DNA from: a virus
Lineage: Duplodnaviria > Heunggongvirae > Uroviricota > Caudoviricetes
Reading direction: 5' to 3' (one strand)
IMG/VR virus record: IMGVR_UViG_2654587792_000011
DNA: 14,367 bases
Shown here: piece by piece, positions 257 through 11,427 of the stretch
Layout of the letters: the number at the start of each line of letters is the position of its first letter
Numbering within the stretch: position 1 is the stretch's first letter
Translations under genes and position numbers: made by a program
The notes under the pieces: model-generated
The model's database searches: none
What the model saw: only the letters and a program-made list of their open reading frames with translations
Told to the model about the DNA's origin: nothing

Positions 257-260
257 GTCC

Positions 261-286
261 ATAAGAAAGCCCCTCCGGAGAGGGGC
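261..286 (-). terminator. rho-independent terminator (minus orientation), convergent with 228..256
   Basis: On the minus strand: GCCCCUC-UCCG-GAGGGGC followed by UUUCUUAU. The stem is a perfect 7 bp; the U-tract is moderate. Confidence 0.45.
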
Positions 287-483
287 TGGAGAGTGGCGCT
301 ATGTGCCATTGCATGGTGCCGGGTGCCTCCCGGTGAATTCAGTACCAGCACCTGAATCCGCGATTATCCCATATACCTACTCGCTGATTGCCCCTCCGCA
401 CAGGGGGATTCACCATGCCAGTTTCTTTTAACAAACTCCCCGCAAAACAGACAACAGTCAACCGCCTGAATTGTGAGACATTT

Positions 484-509
484 AAAAAAAAGGCCCGCAA
501 AAGCGAGCC
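484..509 (-). terminator. rho-independent terminator directly after the tRNA cluster
   Basis: On the minus strand: GGCUCGC-UUUU-GCGGGCC (one C.A mismatch) followed by U8 (491..484). It starts 15 nt after the CCA end of the last tRNA. Confidence 0.6.
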
Positions 510-523
510 AGGGAAAATAAGTG

Positions 524-600
524 TGGCGCGTTGTACTGGATTCGAACCAGTGACCGATTGCTTAGAAGGCAATTGCTCTGTCCGGCTGAGCTAACAACGC
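524..600 (-). tRNA. argO: tRNA-Arg (anticodon UCU, reads AGA/AGG)
   Basis: 77-nt cloverleaf read by eye: GCGTTGT acceptor, GCTC/GAGC D-arm, ATTGC-CTTCTAA-GCAAT anticodon arm, ACTGG-TTCGAAT-CCAGT T-arm, encoded CCA. Confidence 0.92.
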
Positions 601-613
601 ATGATGCAGATAA

Positions 614-690
614 TGGACCGCCATCGGGGACTTGAACCCCGCGCAGCCAGCTTCGAAGGCTGGCGCTCTTTCCTGATGAGCTAATAGCGG
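614..690 (-). tRNA. argN: tRNA-Arg (anticodon UCG, reads CGA)
   Basis: 77-nt cloverleaf: CCGCTAT acceptor (one G.U pair), CCAGC-CTTCGAA-GCTGG anticodon arm, CGGGG-TTCAAGT-CCCCG T-arm, encoded CCA. Confidence 0.9.
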
Positions 691-697
691 TATGTGA

Positions 698-773
698 TGG
701 TGGCCCTTGCTGGATTTGAACCAGCGACCTGGCGATTATGAGTCGCTCGCTCTCACCACTGAGCTAAAGGGCC
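698..773 (-). tRNA. ileZ: tRNA with CAU anticodon, ileX/ileZ-like (Ile2, AUA after lysidine modification); Met by anticodon alone
   Basis: 76-nt cloverleaf GGCCCTT...AAGGGCC-A-CCA with anticodon loop CTCATAA. The body closely resembles the E. coli ileX sequence as I recall it. Confidence 0.88.
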
Positions 774-6955: not shown

Positions 6956-7948
6956 TCAGAATGTCAATTTGTTACTGGATTTACCGAATTTGTCAGACAT
7001 GGCTCCCAGGCCAGCCAGGACATCGACCTGTCGCTGTCGCCCACCTCCGTGAGCGGCTGGCTGTTGCCAGTAATCTTCGAAGTGACGATCGGGTCCAAAG
7101 AACGTCGCAGCCTGCTTCACGAACTGTGTGCCGATATTTCCTGTAGCACGTACCCAGGCGGCATACCGCTTCACGCCATCAAGCATGGTCTCCGGTTTTA
7201 TTCCCTCCCTGATACGGGCTTTCCAGGCTTTGAAGGCTGCTGACTTGGAATTGCCACCAGCACGTTTGGGATATTCCTGCCAGGCCTGTTCAAATTCCGG
7301 TGAATATTCCTGTCGGGCAGAACGCGCTGGCGCAGACGCGTCAGCGGATGCATCAATAGTGTTTTTAGTCTCCGTTGTAATCTCTGTAGTAATCTCTGTA
7401 TTTGTATCAACATTCGGCGTATCCCCTGTTCCGTTATGACGTCGGGGGGTGTTCCGTTTTAACGTAATAGCTGTATCGCTGATTGCATTATTGCTGTTAC
7501 TTTCTGGCGAAACAGAAGAAGGTGTGGTGATGGCCGCAATTGCCTGTGGGTTGATCCCGACAAACAAAATATTGCTGCATTTCACCCCATCGAGCATTTC
7601 CACCGTGCGTAAATCCAGAGTAATAAACCCTGCATCGCGCAGACGCTTCAGCGCATCTGCGGTTTCCCTTTTCCCGAAACCAAACTGCTCAGCAAACGCC
7701 TGGTAGCTTCTTTGCAGTTTGTCGCCCTGAAAACGCTTGCGATATCCCAGCAACGCTCCGGTGTGCTCATCCCTGACCTCTGTCGGGCGGTACCAGTAAA
7801 CGATCTCTGAAAGCAGAGCGATAGCCGTCGCATCCGGACGCCCACTGGGTAGTCGAATATATTTCCACCAGTTCGCAGGTGTAACATTGCCGGAAATATT
7901 AATTTGACCAATAGCCATAACTTCCGGTGTGGGGGCGTAACGGCTCAT
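6956..7948 (-). CDS. replication initiator / replisome organizer (O-analogue)
   Basis: 330 aa located upstream of the loader and helicase. N-terminal wHTH-like domain, low-complexity linker (TEITTEITTE, DASADASA), conserved-looking C-terminus YSPEFEQAWQEYPKR. The family is not firmly recognised. Confidence 0.65.
   Translation of the reverse strand: MSRYAPTPEVMAIGQINISGNVTPANWWKYIRLPSGRPDATAIALLSEIVYWYRPTEVRDEHTGALLGYRKRFQGDKLQRSYQAFAEQFGFGKRETADALKRLRDAGFITLDLRTVEMLDGVKCSNILFVGINPQAIAAITTPSSVSPESNSNNAISDTAITLKRNTPRRHNGTGDTPNVDTNTEITTEITTETKNTIDASADASAPARSARQEYSPEFEQAWQEYPKRAGGNSKSAAFKAWKARIREGIKPETMLDGVKRYAAWVRATGNIGTQFVKQAATFFGPDRHFEDYWQQPAAHGGGRQRQVDVLAGLGAMSDKFGKSSNKLTF
7377..7400. repeat. 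perfect tandem 12-mer (GTAATCTCTGTA x2) inside the initiator linker; iteron candidates nearby
   Basis: Two adjacent exact copies. TGTTCCGTT occurs at 7427..7435 and 7450..7458 (23-bp phasing), with a TCTCCGTT variant at 7369..7376. Confidence 0.9.
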
Positions 7949-8244
7949 ACAACCTCCTTCCGCGGCATGAGAATTGTGTAGCCACGCGCAGGTTGTAGTC
8001 TGGCTTTTGCATCAATAGTAAGCGTTGCAATTTTTCGGATATGAAGATAACCAGCTCTTTCCAGTGCCAGGGTTTCCCTGAATATCGCTTGCTTAGAACA
8101 ACAGCAGAAATCAGCAAGCACCCGATGATCAATAACTCTCTCGCCTTCACCGTCTGAAGAACCCGACATCAAAACACGCAACATAATCAGGCGCTGAATC
8201 GGGTTATCGAAAGCACATCCGCACACAAACTGAAAACAGTTCAC
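7945..8244 (-). CDS. small winged-helix-like protein, unknown function
   Basis: 99 aa. Segment VLADFCCCSKQAIFRETLALERAGYLHI looks like a wHTH. GTG start overlaps the upstream stop (GTGA), and ATGA overlap with the initiator gene. Confidence 0.55.
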   Translation of the reverse strand: MNCFQFVCGCAFDNPIQRLIMLRVLMSGSSDGEGERVIDHRVLADFCCCSKQAIFRETLALERAGYLHIRKIATLTIDAKARLQPARGYTILMPRKEVV

Positions 8245-8465
8245 GCCACACCTCCCAGACGCTTAAACATTTTTCCAGACAGAAATACCGCCAGAGGGTA
8301 ACTGATGGTGTAGCTACGCCCCTGTAGTTCGCACACGACTTTCTGGCTTTCAGCGTTGACTAGGCAAACCCGCAGAACGTGACCGTTGCTGGTGGCGAAC
8401 CACTGCCCCACACGGGGGCAACGGTTGTATCGGTGATACAGGGAATTAACGATGTGGCGGATCAT
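8241..8465 (-). CDS. hypothetical protein (74 aa)
   Basis: ATGA/GTGA-coupled on both sides within the early-right operon. No recognisable motif. Confidence 0.5.
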   Translation of the reverse strand: MIRHIVNSLYHRYNRCPRVGQWFATSNGHVLRVCLVNAESQKVVCELQGRSYTISYPLAVFLSGKMFKRLGGVA

Positions 8466-8656
8466 GGACGCACCTCCGCCGTAGTTACGTATTTAACCGG
8501 GCTACCTTTCATTGAGATGGTTTCACACATCTCTGCCGCTTTCAGTTCCGCTGTTTTTCTGGATTTATAGCGACGGTGCCAGACAGATACATCCGTGCAA
8601 ACTGATACATCGTTTCTGTATTCCGTAGTGGAGATGATGATTTCGTAACTAATCAT
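8462..8656 (-). CDS. hypothetical protein (64 aa)
   Basis: ATGA overlap with the rha stop and with the next gene. No recognisable motif. Confidence 0.5.
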   Translation of the reverse strand: MISYEIIISTTEYRNDVSVCTDVSVWHRRYKSRKTAELKAAEMCETISMKGSPVKYVTTAEVRP

Positions 8657-9204
8657 GGGCGAACCTCCTTGTCAGAACCATTCAGCCTGGAATCAACAAG
8701 TGCAGCGCCAAAAACAGCATCACCAACACGGTCGTACAGTTTGCTAGCCAGCGGAGATTCAACGGCCTTAAGCATTGGATAAAGCTGGCTTGTCCAGATT
8801 TGATGGATTTCACGCAAATGCAGGTATACGCCTCTGGCGTTTCGTGCGACAGCTGACATATCAACCGCGTCAGCACCAGATAAATTCTTCTCCATCTGGT
8901 TAAAGGCGTTGATGTATGCCTCTTTGAACCGGGCTGCACGTTTGCCAGTAAAGCCCATAGCAAGGAACGCGAAGCCATCGCGGGTGATTTGATAGCAAGG
9001 TAGTTTGCGGCCTGTGCAATCGGTGTAATCACTGGGCTGAAAATTCAGCTCAGTGAATTCAACAGAGCACTCAAGCGTCTGGATTTTTTGAATAACGTTT
9101 TTGTGCTGCTTGCAGAAATATTCGGCAACGGCCAAAGAAGAGGTAACAGCCTTCCCATGGATAACATCAATTTTAGGGTGAGTTTGGGTAGGGGTGGTTG
9201 CCAT
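8653..9204 (-). CDS. rha: phage regulatory protein Rha (183 aa, shortened from the 282-aa ORF)
   Basis: The Rha signature starts right after the internal Met: AVTSSLAVAEYFCKQHKNVIQKI...ITRDGFAFLAMGFTGKRAARFKEAYINAFNQME. ATG at 9204 with GAGGA SD at 9216..9212. The upstream 297 nt carry a terminator and RNA structure. Confidence 0.8.
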   Translation of the reverse strand: MATTPTQTHPKIDVIHGKAVTSSLAVAEYFCKQHKNVIQKIQTLECSVEFTELNFQPSDYTDCTGRKLPCYQITRDGFAFLAMGFTGKRAARFKEAYINAFNQMEKNLSGADAVDMSAVARNARGVYLHLREIHQIWTSQLYPMLKAVESPLASKLYDRVGDAVFGAALVDSRLNGSDKEVRP

Positions 9205-9214
9205 AGTGACATCC

Positions 9215-9256
9215 TCATGTGCGAATTTTGAAAACTCACCACATGGGACGCCAATC
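9215..9256 (-). promoter_or_regulatory. antisense target site pair (a2/b2-like) at the rha ribosome-binding site
   Basis: Minus RNA reads GAUUGGCGUCC (9256..9246), N17, AAAUUCGCACAUGA (9228..9215). The last two nt are the first two nt of the GAGGA SD. Both halves are complementary to loops of the 9262..9340 RNA. Confidence 0.55.
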
Positions 9257-9261
9257 ACAGA

Positions 9262-9340
9262 GGTGGTGAGACGTACAGGGTTGGCGTAACCGGTCGCACA
9301 TGACCCCGGCGCATCTTTCGATGCCCCTGCACGCCCCACC
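9262..9340 (-). ncRNA. c4-like antisense RNA (79 nt)
   Basis: 10-bp closing stem GGUGGGGCGU/ACGUCUCACC leaving a 3' ACC. GAAA-tetraloop hairpin (9327..9308). Large loop carrying UCAUGUGCGA (9303..9294) and ACGCCAA (9287..9281), complementary to the flanking repeated motifs. Confidence 0.6.
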
Positions 9341-9367
9341 ATAATTTGGATGTGAGGAAACGTGCGC

Positions 9368-9390
9368 AAAAAAACCGCTGAAGCGCGGTT
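9368..9390 (-). terminator. rho-independent terminator/attenuator between the upstream target copy and the c4-like RNA
   Basis: On the minus strand: AACCGC-GCUUCA-GCGGUU followed by U5 (7 consecutive A on the plus strand at 9368..9374). Flanked by palindromic TGCGCA arms (9363..9368 and 9392..9397). Confidence 0.6.
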
Positions 9391-9395
9391 ATGCG

Positions 9396-9421
9396 CATGT
9401 GCGAATTTCAGGACGCCAATC
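9396..9421 (-). promoter_or_regulatory. upstream copy of the antisense target pair (a1/b1-like)
   Basis: Minus RNA reads GAUUGGCGUCC (9421..9411), UG, AAAUUCGCACAUG (9408..9396). Both halves are identical to the copy at the rha RBS. Confidence 0.55.
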
Positions 9422-9450
9422 CCGGCACCCGCTTTATAAGGTGCGGAGAC

Positions 9451-9479
9451 AGTGTAACGTCCCGAAATTGCAGAATCAA
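9451..9479 (-). promoter_or_regulatory. candidate promoter for the antisense-RNA cassette
   Basis: On the minus strand: TTGATT (9479..9474), 17 bp, TACACT (9456..9451). Back-to-back with a plus-strand promoter candidate. Confidence 0.3.
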
Positions 9480-9523
9480 TATTTGGTCTTGAAATGATCA
9501 TATAGCTGCTGATATCTTTAGAA

Positions 9524-9610
9524 CTGTTCTTGGATGTTTCGGAGCCGTTTTATGCGAAACAGCTCCCCGTTATTGATGTTGAGTGAGCCGGGTTACTCCC
9601 GGCTTTTTTT
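9524..9610 (+). ncRNA. oop-like convergent small RNA candidate (~85 nt)
   Basis: TTGAAA (9489..9494), 18 bp, TATCTT (9513..9518). Hairpin GGAGCCGUUU...AAACAGCUCC (9541..9566). Plus-orientation terminator 9585..9610 ending at the stop codon of the convergent gene. No ORF. Confidence 0.35.
9585..9610 (+). terminator. rho-independent terminator, plus orientation only
   Basis: GCCGGG (9587..9592) pairs with CCCGGC (9598..9603) across a 5-nt loop, then T7 (9604..9610). In the minus orientation the hairpin is followed by CUCACUCAAC, which is not a U-tract. Confidence 0.65.
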
Positions 9611-10317
9611 CATCGCTGCCAACCAATAACCTGAAATAACCCCATTTTCGGGTGATACCAGCGAGTCCCTCGCGGTTCTGCTTCCTCCATAACCCGATAA
9701 AAAGCAGCCATAAACGGTTCCACAGCAACAATTGCGCGACGTGACAACAATCCGTCCGGCGTCATGAACTCATGTGTGTCTGTAGGAATTTGATAGGCGT
9801 TCACCAGATTGCGGCATTTATCATCTGACAAACCGGTTTTTGCTTTCAGTTGGCGATATCCGGCATAGCCCTCACGAATAGTGCCCTTTTTAATTTGCTC
9901 GACTGTTTCAGCAACGTGGCTGACTTTTTCTTCCACCTGAGTGATCCGTTTCTGTTGGCGAACGGCTTCAAGAGCCATCGCGGCAACCATTTCGATTTCG
10001 CTCATTGGCTTACGGATCTGTTCTTCCAGTTCGCGCCAGCGATCTACCAGGCGAGCTGTGAATTCAGGACAGAGCTGTGCGACGACAATGATGCTGTCGC
10101 GCTTACCTCGTTCACCTTCGAATACATACGCGCTAGAAAATCGGCGAGGCCCAAGTGATTGTTTATTCTCAATTTCCACAGTCTGTGGAAATTGGATGAT
10201 TCCCTTTTTAGCCAGTGTTTCAATAGTTCTCTTAACACTATCTGGTCGGCTTCCCACCAGCTCTGCGATCTCAACGCTGGTCATGGATGCTTTGCCGTTA
10301 AAAATTGCGGTGTTCAT
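9610..10317 (-). CDS. Rha-like / antirepressor-like phage regulator in the cII position
   Basis: 235 aa. N-terminus MTSVEIAELVGSRPDSVKRTIETLAKKG...VVAQLCPEFTARLVDRWRELE follows the Rha-family pattern. AGGAG SD. ATGA overlap with cro. Confidence 0.7.
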   Translation of the reverse strand: MNTAIFNGKASMTSVEIAELVGSRPDSVKRTIETLAKKGIIQFPQTVEIENKQSLGPRRFSSAYVFEGERGKRDSIIVVAQLCPEFTARLVDRWRELEEQIRKPMSEIEMVAAMALEAVRQQKRITQVEEKVSHVAETVEQIKKGTIREGYAGYRQLKAKTGLSDDKCRNLVNAYQIPTDTHEFMTPDGLLSRRAIVAVEPFMAAFYRVMEEAEPRGTRWYHPKMGLFQVIGWQR

Positions 10318-10604
10318 TGTTTATCTCCTGCGTGTATTCCATCCGCTCTGTGTGGTGAACTTGGATTTAGGCTTTTGCGTAACAAGTTAGGAATTCCATC
10401 TTCAGGGTGAGGATAAAGATCTGGCCTTAAGCCATGAGGCGTAACCTTCCATGCAACTACTTCACATACTCGTAAAACGAAACGAGCAGGAATTGTGCTT
10501 TTTGAAAACCACTGATTCACCGCTTGCGGCGTCACACCAAGATTTCGCGCTATGGCATTTTGCGCAATTAATGCACGAAGTTTGTCGTAATCATTTCCTT
10601 CCAT
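10314..10604 (-). CDS. cro: Cro-like HTH regulator (YdaS/Cro family)
   Basis: 96 aa. ARNLGVTPQAVNQWFSKSTIPARFVLRVCEV...LRPDLYP matches the YdaS/Cro-type HTH. Divergent from the repressor gene. Confidence 0.75.
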   Translation of the reverse strand: MEGNDYDKLRALIAQNAIARNLGVTPQAVNQWFSKSTIPARFVLRVCEVVAWKVTPHGLRPDLYPHPEDGIPNLLRKSLNPSSPHRADGIHAGDKQ

Positions 10605-10737
10605 AACAAAGCACCAATATTAACTTTATAAATCAAGAATACATCAAGTTTAAATTAACATGCAAATTACAAAAGGATCGAATACACTAAAATCAAGTAA
10701 AGATTTATCCTTGTAAAGAAACCCACAGGATTTGGTC
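10605..10737. promoter_or_regulatory. divergent PR/PRM-type control region with ATCAAG-type operator half-sites
   Basis: AT-rich 133-bp spacer. ATCAAG occurs at 10632, 10643 and 10692. The 17-mer ATCAAGTAAAGATTTAT (10692..10708) resembles the PL palindrome. Several -35/-10-like hexamers on both strands are not resolved. Confidence 0.5.
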
Positions 10738-11427
10738 ATGAAGAACGTCAAAAACACGGAAAATCGAATAGCCGCGATGCTGAAAGCAAAAGGATGGACT
10801 CAGGCTCAACTGGCCCGCAAGTTAGGTGTGAGTGCGCAATCAGTGCAGTACTGGACAACAGGAAAAACATTTCCACGGAGTGATAAGCTCGCGCATTTAT
10901 CAGAGATTAGCGGTTATCCACAATCCTGGTTCTTAGGTGAAGACTCCTCACCAACCTTTTCCTCGCAAGAGAAACACCAGACAAGAACAGATAGCGTCGT
11001 ATTTAATGTCCTTGATGTTGAGTTTAGTTGCGGTGATGGAACTCATGTCCGTGGTGACTTGATAGATGTAGTGCGCTCAATAGAACTTGATCCTGAATAT
11101 GCCCGACGTCTTGTTGGAAATCGGGCATTCAAAAATATAGAAATAGGTAACGCCAGAGGAGACAGTATGGCTCCCACAATCTCACCTGGCGACCTTCTTT
11201 TTCTTGATAAGACAGTAACTTATTTTGATGGCGATGGTATTTATGCATTTTGTTTTGATGGAGAATGCTACGTGAAAAGGCTTCAAAAAATTGGAAGCAA
11301 AATCATGGTGTTATCTGATAACCCCAATTATCAACCATGGAGCATCGAAAAAGAGGGGTTAGCTCTGCTTTATATCCAGTCTAAAGTGATCTCATCAGTA
11401 CCATTCAACATAAACAGATTTGGTTAG
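10738..11427 (+). CDS. cI: cI-type prophage repressor (XRE HTH + S24/LexA-like autopeptidase)
   Basis: HTH WTQAQLARKLGVSAQSVQYW. GDSMAP Ser143 and YVKRL Lys180 are 37 residues apart, as in LexA. Putative cleavage site Cys98-Gly99. ATG at 10738 with AGGA SD is preferred over the TTG at 10732. Confidence 0.9.
   Translation: MKNVKNTENRIAAMLKAKGWTQAQLARKLGVSAQSVQYWTTGKTFPRSDKLAHLSEISGYPQSWFLGEDSSPTFSSQEKHQTRTDSVVFNVLDVEFSCGDGTHVRGDLIDVVRSIELDPEYARRLVGNRAFKNIEIGNARGDSMAPTISPGDLLFLDKTVTYFDGDGIYAFCFDGECYVKRLQKIGSKIMVLSDNPNYQPWSIEKEGLALLYIQSKVISSVPFNINRFG

What the first reader, a model, noticed from the sequence alone, without database searches (positions are those of the whole stretch)
9205..9480. 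P1 c4/immI-style antisense-RNA switch hidden in the apparent N-terminal extension of the rha ORF
The 282-aa ORF 8653..9501 is better read as a 183-aa Rha CDS (ATG 9204, SD GAGGA 9216..9212) plus a ~300-nt structured leader. On the transcribed minus strand the leader contains, in order: (1) a bipartite motif GAUUGGCGUCC-UG-AAAUUCGCACAUG (9421..9396); (2) an intrinsic terminator hairpin (9390..9368); (3) a 79-nt element (9340..9262); (4) a second copy of the motif, GAUUGGCGUCC-N17-AAAUUCGCACAUGA (9256..9215). The 79-nt element is closed by a 10-bp acceptor-like stem with a 3' ACC tail and has a GAAA-tetraloop hairpin. Its large loop carries UCAUGUGCGA (9303..9294) and ACGCCAA (9287..9281). These are exact complements (9-10 nt and 7 nt) of the two motif halves, in the antiparallel-colinear order. 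The 3' end of the second motif copy overlaps the rha SD. This is the a1 b1 - c4(a' b') - a2 b2(RBS) logic known from the P1/P7 immI operon. There, the ~77-nt RNase P-processed c4 RNA blocks icd translation and, by polarity, ant expression. An extra 8-bp alternative pairing, CUCACCAC (9270..9263) with GUGGUGAG (9242..9235), competes with the closing stem and encloses a2. rha is ATGA-coupled to the whole replication module. Blocking its translation could therefore impose Rho polarity on the initiator, loader and helicase genes, giving a second, RNA-based immunity layer in a cI/Cro phage. That last step is inference.
Basis: partly seen in the sequence, partly recalled or inferred. Interest (0 to 1): 0.85.

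Follow-up and report, generated by a model that had tools for sequence, protein, structure and literature searches.

The report
Known C4/IsrK RNA switch in rha

Summary
Rfam C4 antisense RNA hits 9346..9259(-) at 75.1 bits (cut-off 45). Rfam isrK hits 9444..9368(-) at 62.3 bits (cut-off 50). In 41 distinct homologous leaders the C4 loops a'/b' co-vary with both target pairs (a1b1, a2b2). There are 4 a-types and 7 b-types, reassorted, and b':b2 always runs into the rha Shine-Dalgarno. One amendment is needed: the 282-aa ORF is not a plain artefact. Its frame has no stop in 41/41 leaders, against 35 distinct stop sites in the other two frames, and indels are compensated. Yet substitutions show no codon periodicity (57/64/58, versus 42/38/97 inside rha). 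This is the nested layout known from satellite P4: a long ORF (eta) starts upstream of an internal promoter and spans seqA-CI-seqC, with a shorter in-frame gene (kil) inside. The Pfam "Ash" hit is the conceptual translation of this RNA region; in P4 it lands on the CI RNA gene. IsrK-C4-antirepressor loci were dissected in Gifsy-1. Verdict: real, correctly read, new member of a known kind, modest interest.

The parts
9451..9479 (-). Promoter-like element of the small-RNA unit: -35 TTGATT (9479..9474), 17-nt spacer, -10 TACACT (9456..9451). The predicted transcription start is G 9444.
   Evidence: Read from the sequence. It is invariant in 40 of 41 homologous leaders. It occupies the same position relative to isrK-model position 1 as the Gifsy-1 isrK promoter TTGACA-17-TATATT. 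At 8 of 12 consensus matches it falls below the threshold of the consensus scan. The start site is inferred, not mapped.
9368..9444 (-). IsrK-like small RNA unit (the P4 seqA and P1 a1b1 equivalent): two 5' hairpins, with a1 in the loop of the second, then b1, then an intrinsic terminator.
   Evidence: Rfam isrK RF01394 scores 62.3 bits against a cut-off of 50. The sub-threshold c4-a1b1 model RF03163 overlaps it at 23.9 bits, E 7e-4.
9411..9421 (-). a1 target site GAUUGGCGUCC (core UUGGCGU pairs with a').
   Evidence: The homologous bases G28 and G31 in Gifsy-1 were shown by compensatory mutation to pair with C162 and C159 of a'.
9396..9408 (-). b1 target site AAAUUCGCACAUG (9 nt pair with b').
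9368..9390 (-). Intrinsic terminator of the IsrK-like unit (AACCGC-GCUUCA-GCGGUU followed by U7).
   Evidence: 6-bp stem with T-run. It forms the 3' hairpin of the isrK model.
9259..9346 (-). C4/CI-type antisense RNA gene. The predicted mature RNA is about 9340..9262: a 16-17 bp closing stem, a GAAA-tetraloop hairpin, a second hairpin carrying b', a 3' junction carrying a', and a CCACC 3' end.
   Evidence: Rfam C4 RF01695 scores 75.1 bits against a cut-off of 45. The fold is -46 kcal/mol, z = -5.3. On 20 diverse homologues 99.4% of cells are paired and 12 of 27 pairs show compensatory change. Slid controls give 33-47% paired.
9294..9303 (-). b' antisense loop UCAUGUGCGA.
   Evidence: Exact complement of b2 (10 nt) and b1 (9 nt). 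It co-varies with both across 7 b-types.
9281..9287 (-). a' antisense segment ACGCCAA.
   Evidence: Exact complement of a1 and a2. It co-varies with both across 4 a-types.
9340..9342 (-). In-frame AUG at the 5' edge of C4, at the same position as the first AUG of Gifsy-1 orf45. Here it is in phase with rha, 138 nt upstream.
   Evidence: Its use in this phage is inferred from Gifsy-1.
9246..9256 (-). a2 target site GAUUGGCGUCC.
9215..9228 (-). b2 target site AAAUUCGCACAUGA. Its 3' end overlaps the rha Shine-Dalgarno.
   Evidence: In all 13 loop combinations the b':b2 duplex (10-12 bp) reaches the GAGG/GGGG of the SD.
9207..9255 (-). Local hairpin in which the a2-side strand pairs with b2 and the SD, burying the rha ribosome-binding site.
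   Evidence: Predicted at -26 kcal/mol, z = -3.4. An equivalent SD-burying hairpin is predicted in 12 of 12 specificity types despite different sequences.
8653..9204 (-). rha CDS, short form: 183 aa, SD GAGGA 9216..9212, ATG 9204.
   Evidence: The Pfam Rha domain begins 20 residues after this ATG (residues 120-205 of the long ORF). The SD and ATG are conserved in all homologues, and tblastn similarity begins at residue 1. Substitutions show coding periodicity, 42/38/97.
8653..9501 (-). Long 282-aa ORF (eta-like). It starts upstream of the internal promoter, spans the IsrK-like unit, C4 and a2b2, and continues in frame into rha.
   Evidence: RefSeq annotates it as WP_000587264.1. The frame is free of stops in 41 of 41 leaders, against 16 and 19 distinct stop sites in the other two frames. 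There is no codon periodicity (57/64/58). P4 eta has the same layout.
9235..9270 (-). Candidate alternative helix CUCACCAC (9270..9263) with GUGGUGAG (9242..9235). It would present a2 in a loop and would compete with the C4 closing stem.
   Evidence: Present in the sequence and retained with wobble pairs in the other types. It is not in the minimum-energy fold. The CACCACC strand hardly varies, so covariation cannot decide.

Best explanation
What it is. Positions 9204..9501 on the minus strand hold a C4/CI-type RNA immunity module. It belongs to the same kind as satellite P4 seqA-CI-seqC, P1/P7 a1b1-c4-a2b2 and Gifsy-1 isrK-orf45(STnc1160)-anrP. Here it is embedded in frame in the 5' part of a Rha-family gene of an E. 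coli lambdoid prophage.

Shown here:
- An internal promoter-like element lies just upstream of a 77-nt IsrK-like unit. That unit carries the target sites a1 and b1 and ends in an intrinsic terminator.
- Twenty-one nt further downstream lies a C4 RNA gene.
- The C4 loop b' and junction a' are complementary to a1b1, and also to a2b2 just upstream of rha.
- b2 overlaps the rha Shine-Dalgarno.
- The a2..SD stretch also folds into a conserved hairpin that buries the Shine-Dalgarno.
- One reading frame is kept open from ATG 9501, upstream of the promoter, through all of this into rha. The encoded peptide is not conserved as protein.

Inferred by homology to P1, P4 and Gifsy-1:
- In the lysogen the internal promoter produces mostly terminated IsrK-like RNA.
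- Read-through transcripts are processed (RNase P at the 5' end) to a stable C4 RNA of about 79 nt.
- C4 pairs with a2b2 and keeps the rha start closed. Untranslated RNA is then open to Rho, which limits the ATGA-coupled genes downstream, among them the loader and helicase genes.
- The IsrK-like RNA carries the same a1b1 sites, so it competes for C4. When abundant it relieves the block, as in Gifsy-1.
- Transcripts that arrive from upstream (PR through cro and roi) carry the long ORF's start. Ribosomes reading through the module would prevent the terminator and C4 structures from forming and would open the SD hairpin. Expression would then be insensitive to C4, as P4 eta translation is from the P4 late promoter.
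- Two Rha isoforms are therefore possible: a long form of 282 or 229 aa, and the 183-aa form.
For: Family membership:
- Rfam C4 scores 75.1 bits and isrK 62.3 bits, both above their gathering scores. c4-a1b1 is sub-threshold.
- The isrK + C4 tandem recurs upstream of antirepressor-like genes in Gifsy-1, VT2-Sakai, ST64B, Hafnia phage yong2, Stx1_699 and phiV10. It occurs twice in one E. coli prophage and in P4 itself.

Antisense/target pairing:
- There are 13 loop combinations built from 4 a-types and 7 b-types. Every one pairs 6-8 bp (a) and 9-12 bp (b) with its own two target pairs.
- Mean duplex score is 7.1 cognate versus 3.8 non-cognate for a, and 10.1 versus 4.8 for b2.

C4 fold: 99.4% of cells paired, 12 compensatory pairs, slid controls 33-47%.

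Long ORF:
- There are 0 stop sites in phase with rha, against 16 and 19 distinct sites in the other frames.
- Of those, 34 are polymorphic.
- Indels in the alignment are 3 nt, or a compensating -1/-2 pair.

No selection on the peptide: variable columns by codon position are 57/64/58 in the leader and 42/38/97 in rha.

Pfam Ash in P4 falls on the obsolete 'cI protein' ORF over the CI RNA, not on epsilon.

P4 layout, checked on the sequence: eta ATG 8767, kil ATG 8365 in the same frame, with the C4 and isrK-like hits inside eta. The mechanism is summarised in PMC10111431.

Gifsy-1 experiments, PMC4825925:
- The isrK promoter drives anrP transcription.
- IsrK in trans activates translation.
- orf45 translation is required.
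- The G28/C162 and G31/C159 compensatory pairs map onto a1:a'.

SD-burying hairpin: predicted in 12 of 12 types.
Against: - There is no expression data for this prophage. The transcription start, termination efficiency, C4 processing and every regulatory outcome are inferred.
- In this window ATG 9501 has no recognisable Shine-Dalgarno. No upstream ORF ends at the overlapping TGA. In P4 and in several related loci the long ORF is ATGA-coupled to the preceding gene. The translation-bypass step is therefore weakest for this particular copy.
- The internal promoter matches only 8 of 12 consensus positions and is missed by the scan.
- The three precedents differ in how C4 acts: translation block plus polarity in P1, termination control in P4, and an IsrK-driven structural switch in Gifsy-1. 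Sequence alone cannot say which dominates here.
- The regulated protein is a Rha-domain protein. Its role (antirepressor, regulator or replication accessory) is unknown.
Confidence: 0.8

Rival explanations
1. Positions 9205..9501 are purely non-coding leader RNA. The 282-aa ORF is a gene-caller artefact and is never translated. Only the 183-aa Rha is made, and only C4 occlusion of its SD controls it, as in P1.
For: Substitutions in the leader show no codon periodicity, while rha does. Both Rfam models hit. The SD and ATG 9204 are conserved and are the target of b'. ATG 9501 has no SD and no coupling partner in this window. The Pfam Ash hit is explained by conservation of the RNA.
Against: The frame is open in 41 of 41 distinct leaders, while 35 distinct stop sites all fall in the other two frames. 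The probability of that pattern is about 7e-7 if stop sites were equally likely in each frame. Indels keep the frame. The same in-frame layout occurs in ST64B, yong2, Stx1_699 and P4. In P4 the long ORF is reported to be translated and functionally needed. The rha SD is buried in a conserved hairpin. In Gifsy-1 such a start needs ribosomes arriving from upstream.
Confidence: 0.15
2. The 282-aa ORF encodes a genuine two-domain Ash-Rha protein whose N-terminal Ash domain has a protein function. The RNA-family hits are incidental to a conserved coding sequence.
For: Pfam Phage_ASH scores 53.8 bits over residues 16-110. PGAP and several PHROGs treat such long ORFs as proteins. The frame is conserved.
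Against: There is no excess of third-position variation (57/64/58). The variation is instead compensatory in RNA stems and co-varies between antisense loops and targets. A -1/-2 indel pair changes 10 codons in some members. In P4 the Ash model lands on the CI RNA gene. By established knowledge (the P4 literature of Ghisotti, Sabbattini, Forti and Deho, cited) the product of that gene is an RNA. The Gifsy-1 authors report that the nucleotide sequence is conserved while the amino-acid sequence varies.
Confidence: 0.04
3. P4-style termination control is the main output. C4 pairs with a1b1 on nascent transcripts from the internal promoter and with a2b2. This enforces termination at or after the 9390..9368 terminator. 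SD occlusion of rha is secondary.
For: The module is closest in layout to P4, where CI acts on transcription termination through seqA and seqC. a1b1 lies immediately 5' of an intrinsic terminator. Every downstream gene needs read-through of this terminator.
Against: The b':b2 duplex reaches the SD in every specificity type. That is the hallmark of translational control. The spacing between the isrK-like unit and C4 is 21 nt here and 108 nt in P4. In Gifsy-1 the measured effect of IsrK was far larger on translation (139-fold) than on transcription (8-fold).
Confidence: 0.25

Closest known systems
Satellite phage P4 immunity region: PLE - seqA - CI RNA - seqC inside the nested genes eta (ORF199) and kil
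   Same: The same two Rfam models hit in the same order in P4 (isrK-like 8692..8615, C4 8507..8420). In both, a long ORF starts upstream of the internal promoter and spans the whole RNA module, and a shorter gene is nested in the same frame downstream of the second target site. Pfam Ash covers the RNA region in both.
   Different: The nested gene here is a 183-aa Rha-domain protein, not the 65-aa Kil. The spacer between the isrK-like unit and C4 is 21 nt here and 108 nt in P4. The long ORF is not ATGA-coupled to an upstream gene in this window. The host element is a cI/cro lambdoid prophage, with the module between roi and the replication genes, not a satellite.
Gifsy-1 isrK - orf45 (STnc1160) - anrP locus of Salmonella (Hershko-Shalev et al. 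2016, PMC4825925)
   Same: The isrK + C4 tandem has the same spacing. The a-type is the same (UUGGCGU / ACGCCAA). An AUG sits at the 5' edge of C4. A buried SD belongs to a downstream antirepressor-like gene. The experimentally proven pairs G28-C162 and G31-C159 correspond to a1:a'.
   Different: In Gifsy-1 orf45 is a separate 45-codon ORF that stops on the anrP start (AUGA), and no long ORF spans isrK. AnrP is an ORF6N-domain protein, not Rha. The Gifsy-1 locus lies downstream of antQ, not in the early right operon. The b specificity differs.
P1/P7 immI operon: a1 b1 - c4 - a2 b2 - icd - ant (Rfam C4 RF01695; Citron and Schuster, from my own knowledge; listed in PMC12197685 and PMC2864571)
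   Same: The order of targets and antisense RNA is the same. b2 overlaps the RBS of the first downstream gene. The RNA has a tRNA-like closing stem and a CCACC 3' end. Specificity is set by a few loop bases.
   Different: There is no icd-like small ORF between the RNA and the regulated gene. Here the a1b1 unit carries its own terminator and matches the isrK model. The whole module lies inside one open reading frame.
'Rha/Ash domain' proteins of Eru6/7/9-type Shiga-toxin phages (PMC8951638), and 'Bro-network' genes with CI/seqA homologues in PICI satellites (PMC10111431)
   Same: Stx2a phages of the LC5678xx series, which includes the Eru7 representative, match this leader at about 86% identity. 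The 2023 paper already states that CI and seqA homologues sit inside Phage_ASH-containing genes and cites the P4 eta mechanism.
   Different: The Stx-phage paper treats Ash as a protein domain of unknown function and does not mention the RNAs. Neither paper analyses this prophage, the specificity types or the coding signature.

Membership tests
Rfam C4 antisense RNA (RF01695) | Covariance-model score at or above the gathering score, over the full model. | tested here: met
   75.1 bits against a cut-off of 45, model positions 1-87 of 87, at 9346..9259(-).
Rfam C4 antisense RNA (RF01695) | Long closing stem plus two internal hairpins, supported by compensatory changes. | tested here: met
   On 20 diverse homologues 99.4% of cells are paired and 12 of 27 pairs change on both sides. 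The covariation score is 0.438, against 0.05-0.08 for slid controls.
Rfam C4 antisense RNA (RF01695) | Loop segments a' and b' are complementary to one target pair upstream (a1b1) and one downstream (a2b2), with b2 at the RBS of the next gene. | tested here: met
   Exact 7-nt and 9-10-nt complements in the window. The complementarity holds in all 13 loop combinations, and b':b2 reaches the SD in each.
Rfam C4 antisense RNA (RF01695) | Processed by RNase P to a stable RNA of about 77 nt that represses in trans. | not testable with these tools
   Needs a Northern blot, RNA-seq or in vitro RNase P cleavage. Only the tRNA-like stem and CCACC 3' end are visible in the sequence.
Rfam isrK (RF01394) / c4-a1b1 (RF03163) | Covariance-model score at or above the gathering score. 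| tested here: met
   isrK scores 62.3 bits against a cut-off of 50 at 9444..9368(-). c4-a1b1 alone does not pass: 23.9 bits against 46.7.
Rfam isrK (RF01394) / c4-a1b1 (RF03163) | Own promoter and intrinsic terminator giving a short RNA, with read-through into a downstream antirepressor-like gene. | tested here: inconclusive
   A terminator is found. The conserved TTGATT-17-TACACT is at the position of the Gifsy-1 promoter, but it matches only 8 of 12 consensus positions and no start site has been mapped.
Rfam isrK (RF01394) / c4-a1b1 (RF03163) | The short RNA activates downstream translation in trans and binds Hfq. | not testable with these tools
   Shown only for Gifsy-1.
P4 eta/kil nested-gene immunity module | A long ORF begins upstream of the internal promoter and spans seqA-CI-seqC. 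A shorter gene is nested in the same frame after the second target. | tested here: met
   The long ORF is 9501..8653, the promoter -35 is at 9479, and the rha ATG 9204 is in frame. P4 has eta ATG 8767 and kil ATG 8365 in one frame. The frame is kept open in 41 of 41 homologues.
P4 eta/kil nested-gene immunity module | The long ORF is translationally coupled to the preceding gene. | tested here: not met
   No ORF ends at the TGA that overlaps ATG 9501, and no SD precedes it. Coupling-type ATGA contexts with an SD do occur in other related loci.
P4 eta/kil nested-gene immunity module | Translation of the long ORF suppresses termination and makes upstream-promoter transcripts insensitive to immunity. 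A Rho-dependent terminator lies downstream. | not testable with these tools
   Known for P4 only, as summarised in PMC10111431.
Pfam Phage_ASH (PF10554), taken as a protein domain | HMM score above the gathering score. | tested here: met
   53.8 bits against a cut-off of 26, residues 16-110 of the 282-aa ORF.
Pfam Phage_ASH (PF10554), taken as a protein domain | Conservation at the amino-acid level (purifying selection on the peptide). | tested here: not met
   Variable columns by codon position are 57/64/58 in the leader and 42/38/97 in rha. In P4 the model lands on the CI RNA gene, not on epsilon.
Rha family (PF09669 / TIGR02681) | HMM score above the cut-off. | tested here: met
   PF09669 scores 111.8 bits over residues 120-205. 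TIGR02681 scores 114.3 bits over residues 109-208.

The most novel reading that the evidence does not exclude
Two linked readings are not excluded.

(1) The 'Ash domain' of Pfam and PGAP may not be a protein domain at all. It may be a stretch kept open only so that ribosomes can run through the RNA switch, as in the P4 eta bypass. That would give long and short Rha isoforms whose N-terminal extension has an arbitrary sequence.

(2) The freely reassorting a (at least 4) and b (at least 7) specificity modules may form a combinatorial heteroimmunity code. Co-resident prophages could use it to cross-regulate or to stay insulated. Matches to this leader occur in 1170 of 5426 complete E. coli genomes, with up to 4 places per genome, and the carriers include Shiga-toxin phages. 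Tandem modules within one operon carry different types.
Probability: 0.4. Interest if true: 0.5.

Novelty: new member of a known kind. Interest (0 to 1): 0.3.

Why it matters
Practical value. RefSeq annotates this locus only as a 282-aa 'Rha family phage regulatory protein', with no RNA genes. A recent survey of Shiga-toxin phages lists 'Rha/Ash domain' proteins next to cI as being of unknown function. If these are read as C4/IsrK RNA switches in front of the replication genes, there is a testable handle on lysogeny stability and induction in a widespread group of E. coli prophages, including Stx2a phages.

Curation point. The Pfam Ash family appears to be the conceptual translation of a conserved RNA module.

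Conceptually nothing is new. The RNA families, the nested-ORF trick and the decoy role of the a1b1 RNA have all been described in P1, P4 and Gifsy-1.

Tried and rejected
I rejected that after the codon-position test. In P4 the same model covers the CI RNA gene, while epsilon belongs to PF25738.
- I rejected 'the long ORF is an artefact' after the stop-site and indel analysis.
- I looked for CI operator-like repeats in the cI-cro intergenic region, to ask whether the internal promoter is repressor-controlled. Only one weak direct repeat was found and no usable operator consensus emerged. I dropped this line.
- The consensus promoter scan does not list the internal promoter. Its assignment rests on conservation and on position relative to the Gifsy-1 promoter.
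- I tried to read Forti et al. 1999 (DOI and PMC94026). It is not held. The P4 mechanism is therefore cited through PMC10111431 and checked on the P4 sequence.
- Two literature searches returned nothing useful.
- I did not run the large protein-database searches or a structure prediction. PHROGs and Pfam already showed the N-terminal region fused to varied C-termini. A single-sequence model would not have decided between coding and RNA.
- P1 and P7 themselves were not fetched.
Full report
CONTEXT. The window is a lambdoid E. coli prophage read in reverse. The 9150..9620 stretch is 100% identical to the chromosome of E. coli O111:H8 strain 8E and 98.9% identical to phage PhiR49_2. On the minus strand the gene order is:
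- cro, 10604..10314; the cI-like repressor gene lies on the opposite (+) strand at 10732..11427
- a Roi/Rha-like gene, 10317..9610
- a 108-nt gap
- the 282-aa ORF, 9501..8653
- a chain of overlapping genes ending in a DnaC-like loader, a DnaB helicase and Q

RefSeq annotates the 282-aa ORF as a 'Rha family phage regulatory protein' and annotates no RNA gene there.

UCAUGUGCGA (9303..9294) is the exact complement of 10 nt at 9224..9215 and of 9 nt at 9404..9396. ACGCCAA (9287..9281) is the complement of UUGGCGU at 9419..9413 and at 9254..9248. TCGCACATG occurs three times against 0.17 expected. GATTGGCGTCC occurs twice against 0.01 expected. No shuffle out of 200 reaches either count. The terminator at 9390..9368 is picked up independently.

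Three details need correcting:
- The closing stem is 16-17 bp, not 10.
- b' lies in the 12-nt loop of the second hairpin, and a' lies in the 3' junction.
- The 8-bp alternative helix is not part of the predicted minimum-energy fold.

WHAT IT IS. C4 (RF01695) scores 75.1 bits at 9346..9259(-), cut-off 45. isrK (RF01394) scores 62.3 bits at 9444..9368(-), cut-off 50. The c4-a1b1 model overlaps the isrK hit below its threshold.

The same tandem, isrK followed about 20-25 nt later by C4, sits upstream of antirepressor-like genes in Gifsy-1, VT2-Sakai, ST64B, Hafnia phage yong2, Stx1_699 and phiV10. It occurs twice in one E. coli prophage. It also occurs in satellite P4. There the isrK-like hit covers the seqA region and the C4 hit covers the CI RNA gene.

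The leader has matches in 282 phage records. It also has matches in 1170 of 5426 complete E. coli genomes.

EVIDENCE FROM RELATIVES THAT IT WORKS AS AN ANTISENSE SWITCH. I collected 80 loci encoding relatives of the 183-aa Rha and aligned 41 distinct leaders. The antisense segments fall into 4 a-types and 7 b-types, which reassort into 13 combinations.
- In every combination a' pairs 6-8 bp with both a1 and a2.
- In every combination b' pairs 9-12 bp with both b1 and b2.
- The b':b2 duplex always extends into the GAGG/GGGG Shine-Dalgarno of rha.
- Cognate duplexes are much longer than non-cognate ones: 7.1 against 3.8 for a, and 10.1 against 4.8 for b2.

The C4 fold itself is supported on 20 diverse sequences that include Gifsy-1, Sakai and P4. 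There, 99.4% of cells are paired and 12 of 27 pairs show compensatory changes, while slid controls give 33-47% paired.

The SD and ATG at 9204 are conserved in all leaders, and protein similarity begins exactly there. The Rha domain starts 20 residues later. The 183-aa start is therefore real, and it is the start that b' covers.

THE TWIST: THE LONG ORF IS NOT A SIMPLE ARTEFACT. Pfam Phage_ASH matches residues 16-110 of the 282-aa ORF at 53.8 bits. That stretch is exactly the RNA module. Two tests resolve it.

Test 1, substitution pattern. Variable columns in the leader show no codon periodicity: 57/64/58 at positions 1/2/3. The adjacent rha CDS in the same loci gives 42/38/97. The peptide is not under selection.

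Test 2, where the Ash model lands in P4. It falls on the obsolete 'cI gene product (AA 1-137)' ORF, at the residues that overlie the CI RNA. Epsilon belongs to another family, PF25738. The Ash family is thus the conceptual translation of this conserved RNA region.

Even so, the frame in phase with rha carries no stop for at least 318 nt in all 41 leaders. The other two frames carry 16 and 19 distinct stop sites, 34 of them polymorphic. The probability of that pattern is about 7e-7 if each site were equally likely to fall in any frame. The indels in the alignment are 3 nt long, or form a compensating -1/-2 pair. The frame is therefore kept open without conserving the peptide. The Gifsy-1 authors made the same observation for orf45.

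THE PRECEDENT IS P4. PMC10111431 summarises it as follows:
- P4 eta contains an internal constitutive promoter.
- The transcript from that promoter is terminated through CI/seqA RNA interactions and is processed to CI.
- Kil is a truncated Eta made on read-through.
- Full-length Eta is translated only from an upstream late promoter.
- Eta translation prevents termination.

I checked the layout on the P4 sequence. The eta ATG is at 8767 and overlaps the stop of ORF88. The kil ATG is at 8365 in the same frame. Both RNA hits lie inside eta.

The window has the same anatomy. ATG 9501 lies upstream of the conserved TTGATT-17-TACACT element (9479..9451). The predicted start, G 9444, coincides with isrK-model position 1, just as the Gifsy-1 promoter does. 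The frame then runs through the IsrK-like unit, C4 and a2b2 into rha.

Type-B loci (ST64B, yong2, Stx1_699 and the tandem pair) share this in-frame design. Gifsy-1, Sakai and phiV10 instead have short ORFs or stops.

One feature of P4 is not met here. No upstream ORF ends at the TGA overlapping ATG 9501, and there is no SD before it. The bypass step is therefore least secure for this particular copy.

LINK TO THE GIFSY-1 EXPERIMENTS. With the transcription start at isrK-model position 1, the published numbering maps cleanly. G28 and G31 lie in a1. C159 and C162 lie in a'. The compensatory mutants of Hershko-Shalev et al. therefore prove a1:a' pairing. The orf45 AUGs at 107 and 119 are the AUGs at the 5' edge of C4. 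The window has the equivalent AUG at 9342, in phase with rha.

In Gifsy-1, IsrK supplied in trans raises anrP translation 139-fold, and this requires orf45 translation. The authors also detect a processed stable RNA downstream of IsrK (STnc1160) and liken it to P4 CI.

In all 12 specificity types I folded, the a2..SD stretch forms a hairpin of -20 to -31 kcal/mol that buries the rha SD. This fits the Gifsy-1 conclusion that the downstream start needs ribosomes coming from upstream.

MOST LIKELY MECHANISM. The anatomy, the complementarity, the covariation and the frame conservation are shown here. The rest is inferred by homology:
- In the lysogen the internal promoter gives mostly terminated IsrK-like RNA.
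- Read-through RNA is processed to C4.
- C4 holds a2b2 and the SD closed. Untranslated RNA allows Rho to limit the coupled genes downstream.
- Abundant IsrK-like RNA titrates C4 and relieves the block.
- Transcripts from PR that carry ATG 9501, or ribosomes starting at AUG 9342, read through the structures and deliver expression that is insensitive to C4.

Which of the three published modes dominates cannot be decided from sequence. The modes are the P1 translation block with polarity, P4 termination control, and the Gifsy-1 structural switch.

NOVELTY AND SCORE. The RNA families have been in Rfam since the 2010 comparative-genomics survey. The locus type was dissected in Gifsy-1 in 2016. The presence of CI/seqA homologues inside Ash-containing genes, with the eta mechanism, was noted in 2023.

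What is added here is modest:
- this prophage copy, including its position between roi and the replication genes
- the quantified specificity repertoire
- the explicit test showing an open frame without a conserved peptide
- the observation that the Pfam Ash hit coincides with the RNA module, both here and in P4

I rate this a new member of a known kind, interest about 0.3.

Noticed in passing
window 9489..9612 (+ strand): A strong plus-strand intrinsic terminator (GAGCCGGG-TTACT-CCCGGCTT followed by T-run, 9585..9605) overlaps the roi stop. A plus-strand promoter-like site (TTGAAA-18-TATCTT with TG, 9489..9518) lies divergent from the IsrK promoter. Together they could give a plus-strand RNA of about 85 nt in the roi-rha gap. 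The only Rfam match is a weak sroD hit (24.5 bits, cut-off 50).
   Followed up: no
window 257..773 (- strand): An STnc100 sRNA homologue lies at 447..257 (139 bits). Three tRNA genes lie at 527..600, 617..690 and 701..773. All are downstream of the Q-like region, the arrangement typical of Stx-type lambdoid late regions.
   Followed up: no
L090 (phage P4) 8168..8584 and 7888..8175: Pfam Phage_ASH (PF10554) matches the obsolete P4 'cI protein' ORF over the CI RNA gene, not epsilon, which matches PF25738. A survey of P4-like satellites (PMC8628076) used PF10554 as its epsilon marker. That survey may therefore have been detecting the immunity RNA region instead.
   Followed up: partly
L083 2620..4124 (E. 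coli S1-ISR-02-A prophage): Two complete isrK + C4 modules lie in tandem, each fused in frame to a downstream ORF ('ash family protein' of 220 aa, then Rha of 281 aa). They carry different a and b specificities (CGCAG/GTCAACGG and GGCGT/CGCACATG). This suggests orthogonal control within one operon.
   Followed up: partly
L019 (IMG/VR contig), leader region: A natural variant in which the 3' end of the roi gene runs straight into the IsrK terminator region. It lacks the internal promoter, a1 and b1, but keeps C4, a2b2 and the open frame.
   Followed up: no
window 9610..10317 (- strand): The gene just upstream is a second, divergent Rha/Roi-like protein (Pfam Rha 25.6 bits, below the cut-off; PGAP calls it 'Rha family transcriptional regulator'). 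Two Rha-type genes therefore flank the RNA module.
   Followed up: no
L003-L082 leaders (alignment): The a and b specificity segments reassort independently: 4 a-types and 7 b-types give 13 observed combinations. The upstream context of the long ORF's start also varies. Several contexts are ATGA-coupled to different preceding genes, including the 3' end of another rha.
   Followed up: partly
L036, first codons of rha: One base is missing right after the rha ATG (ATG-CTACG instead of ATGGCTACG). This would shift the Rha frame. It may be a sequencing error or a pseudogene.
   Followed up: no
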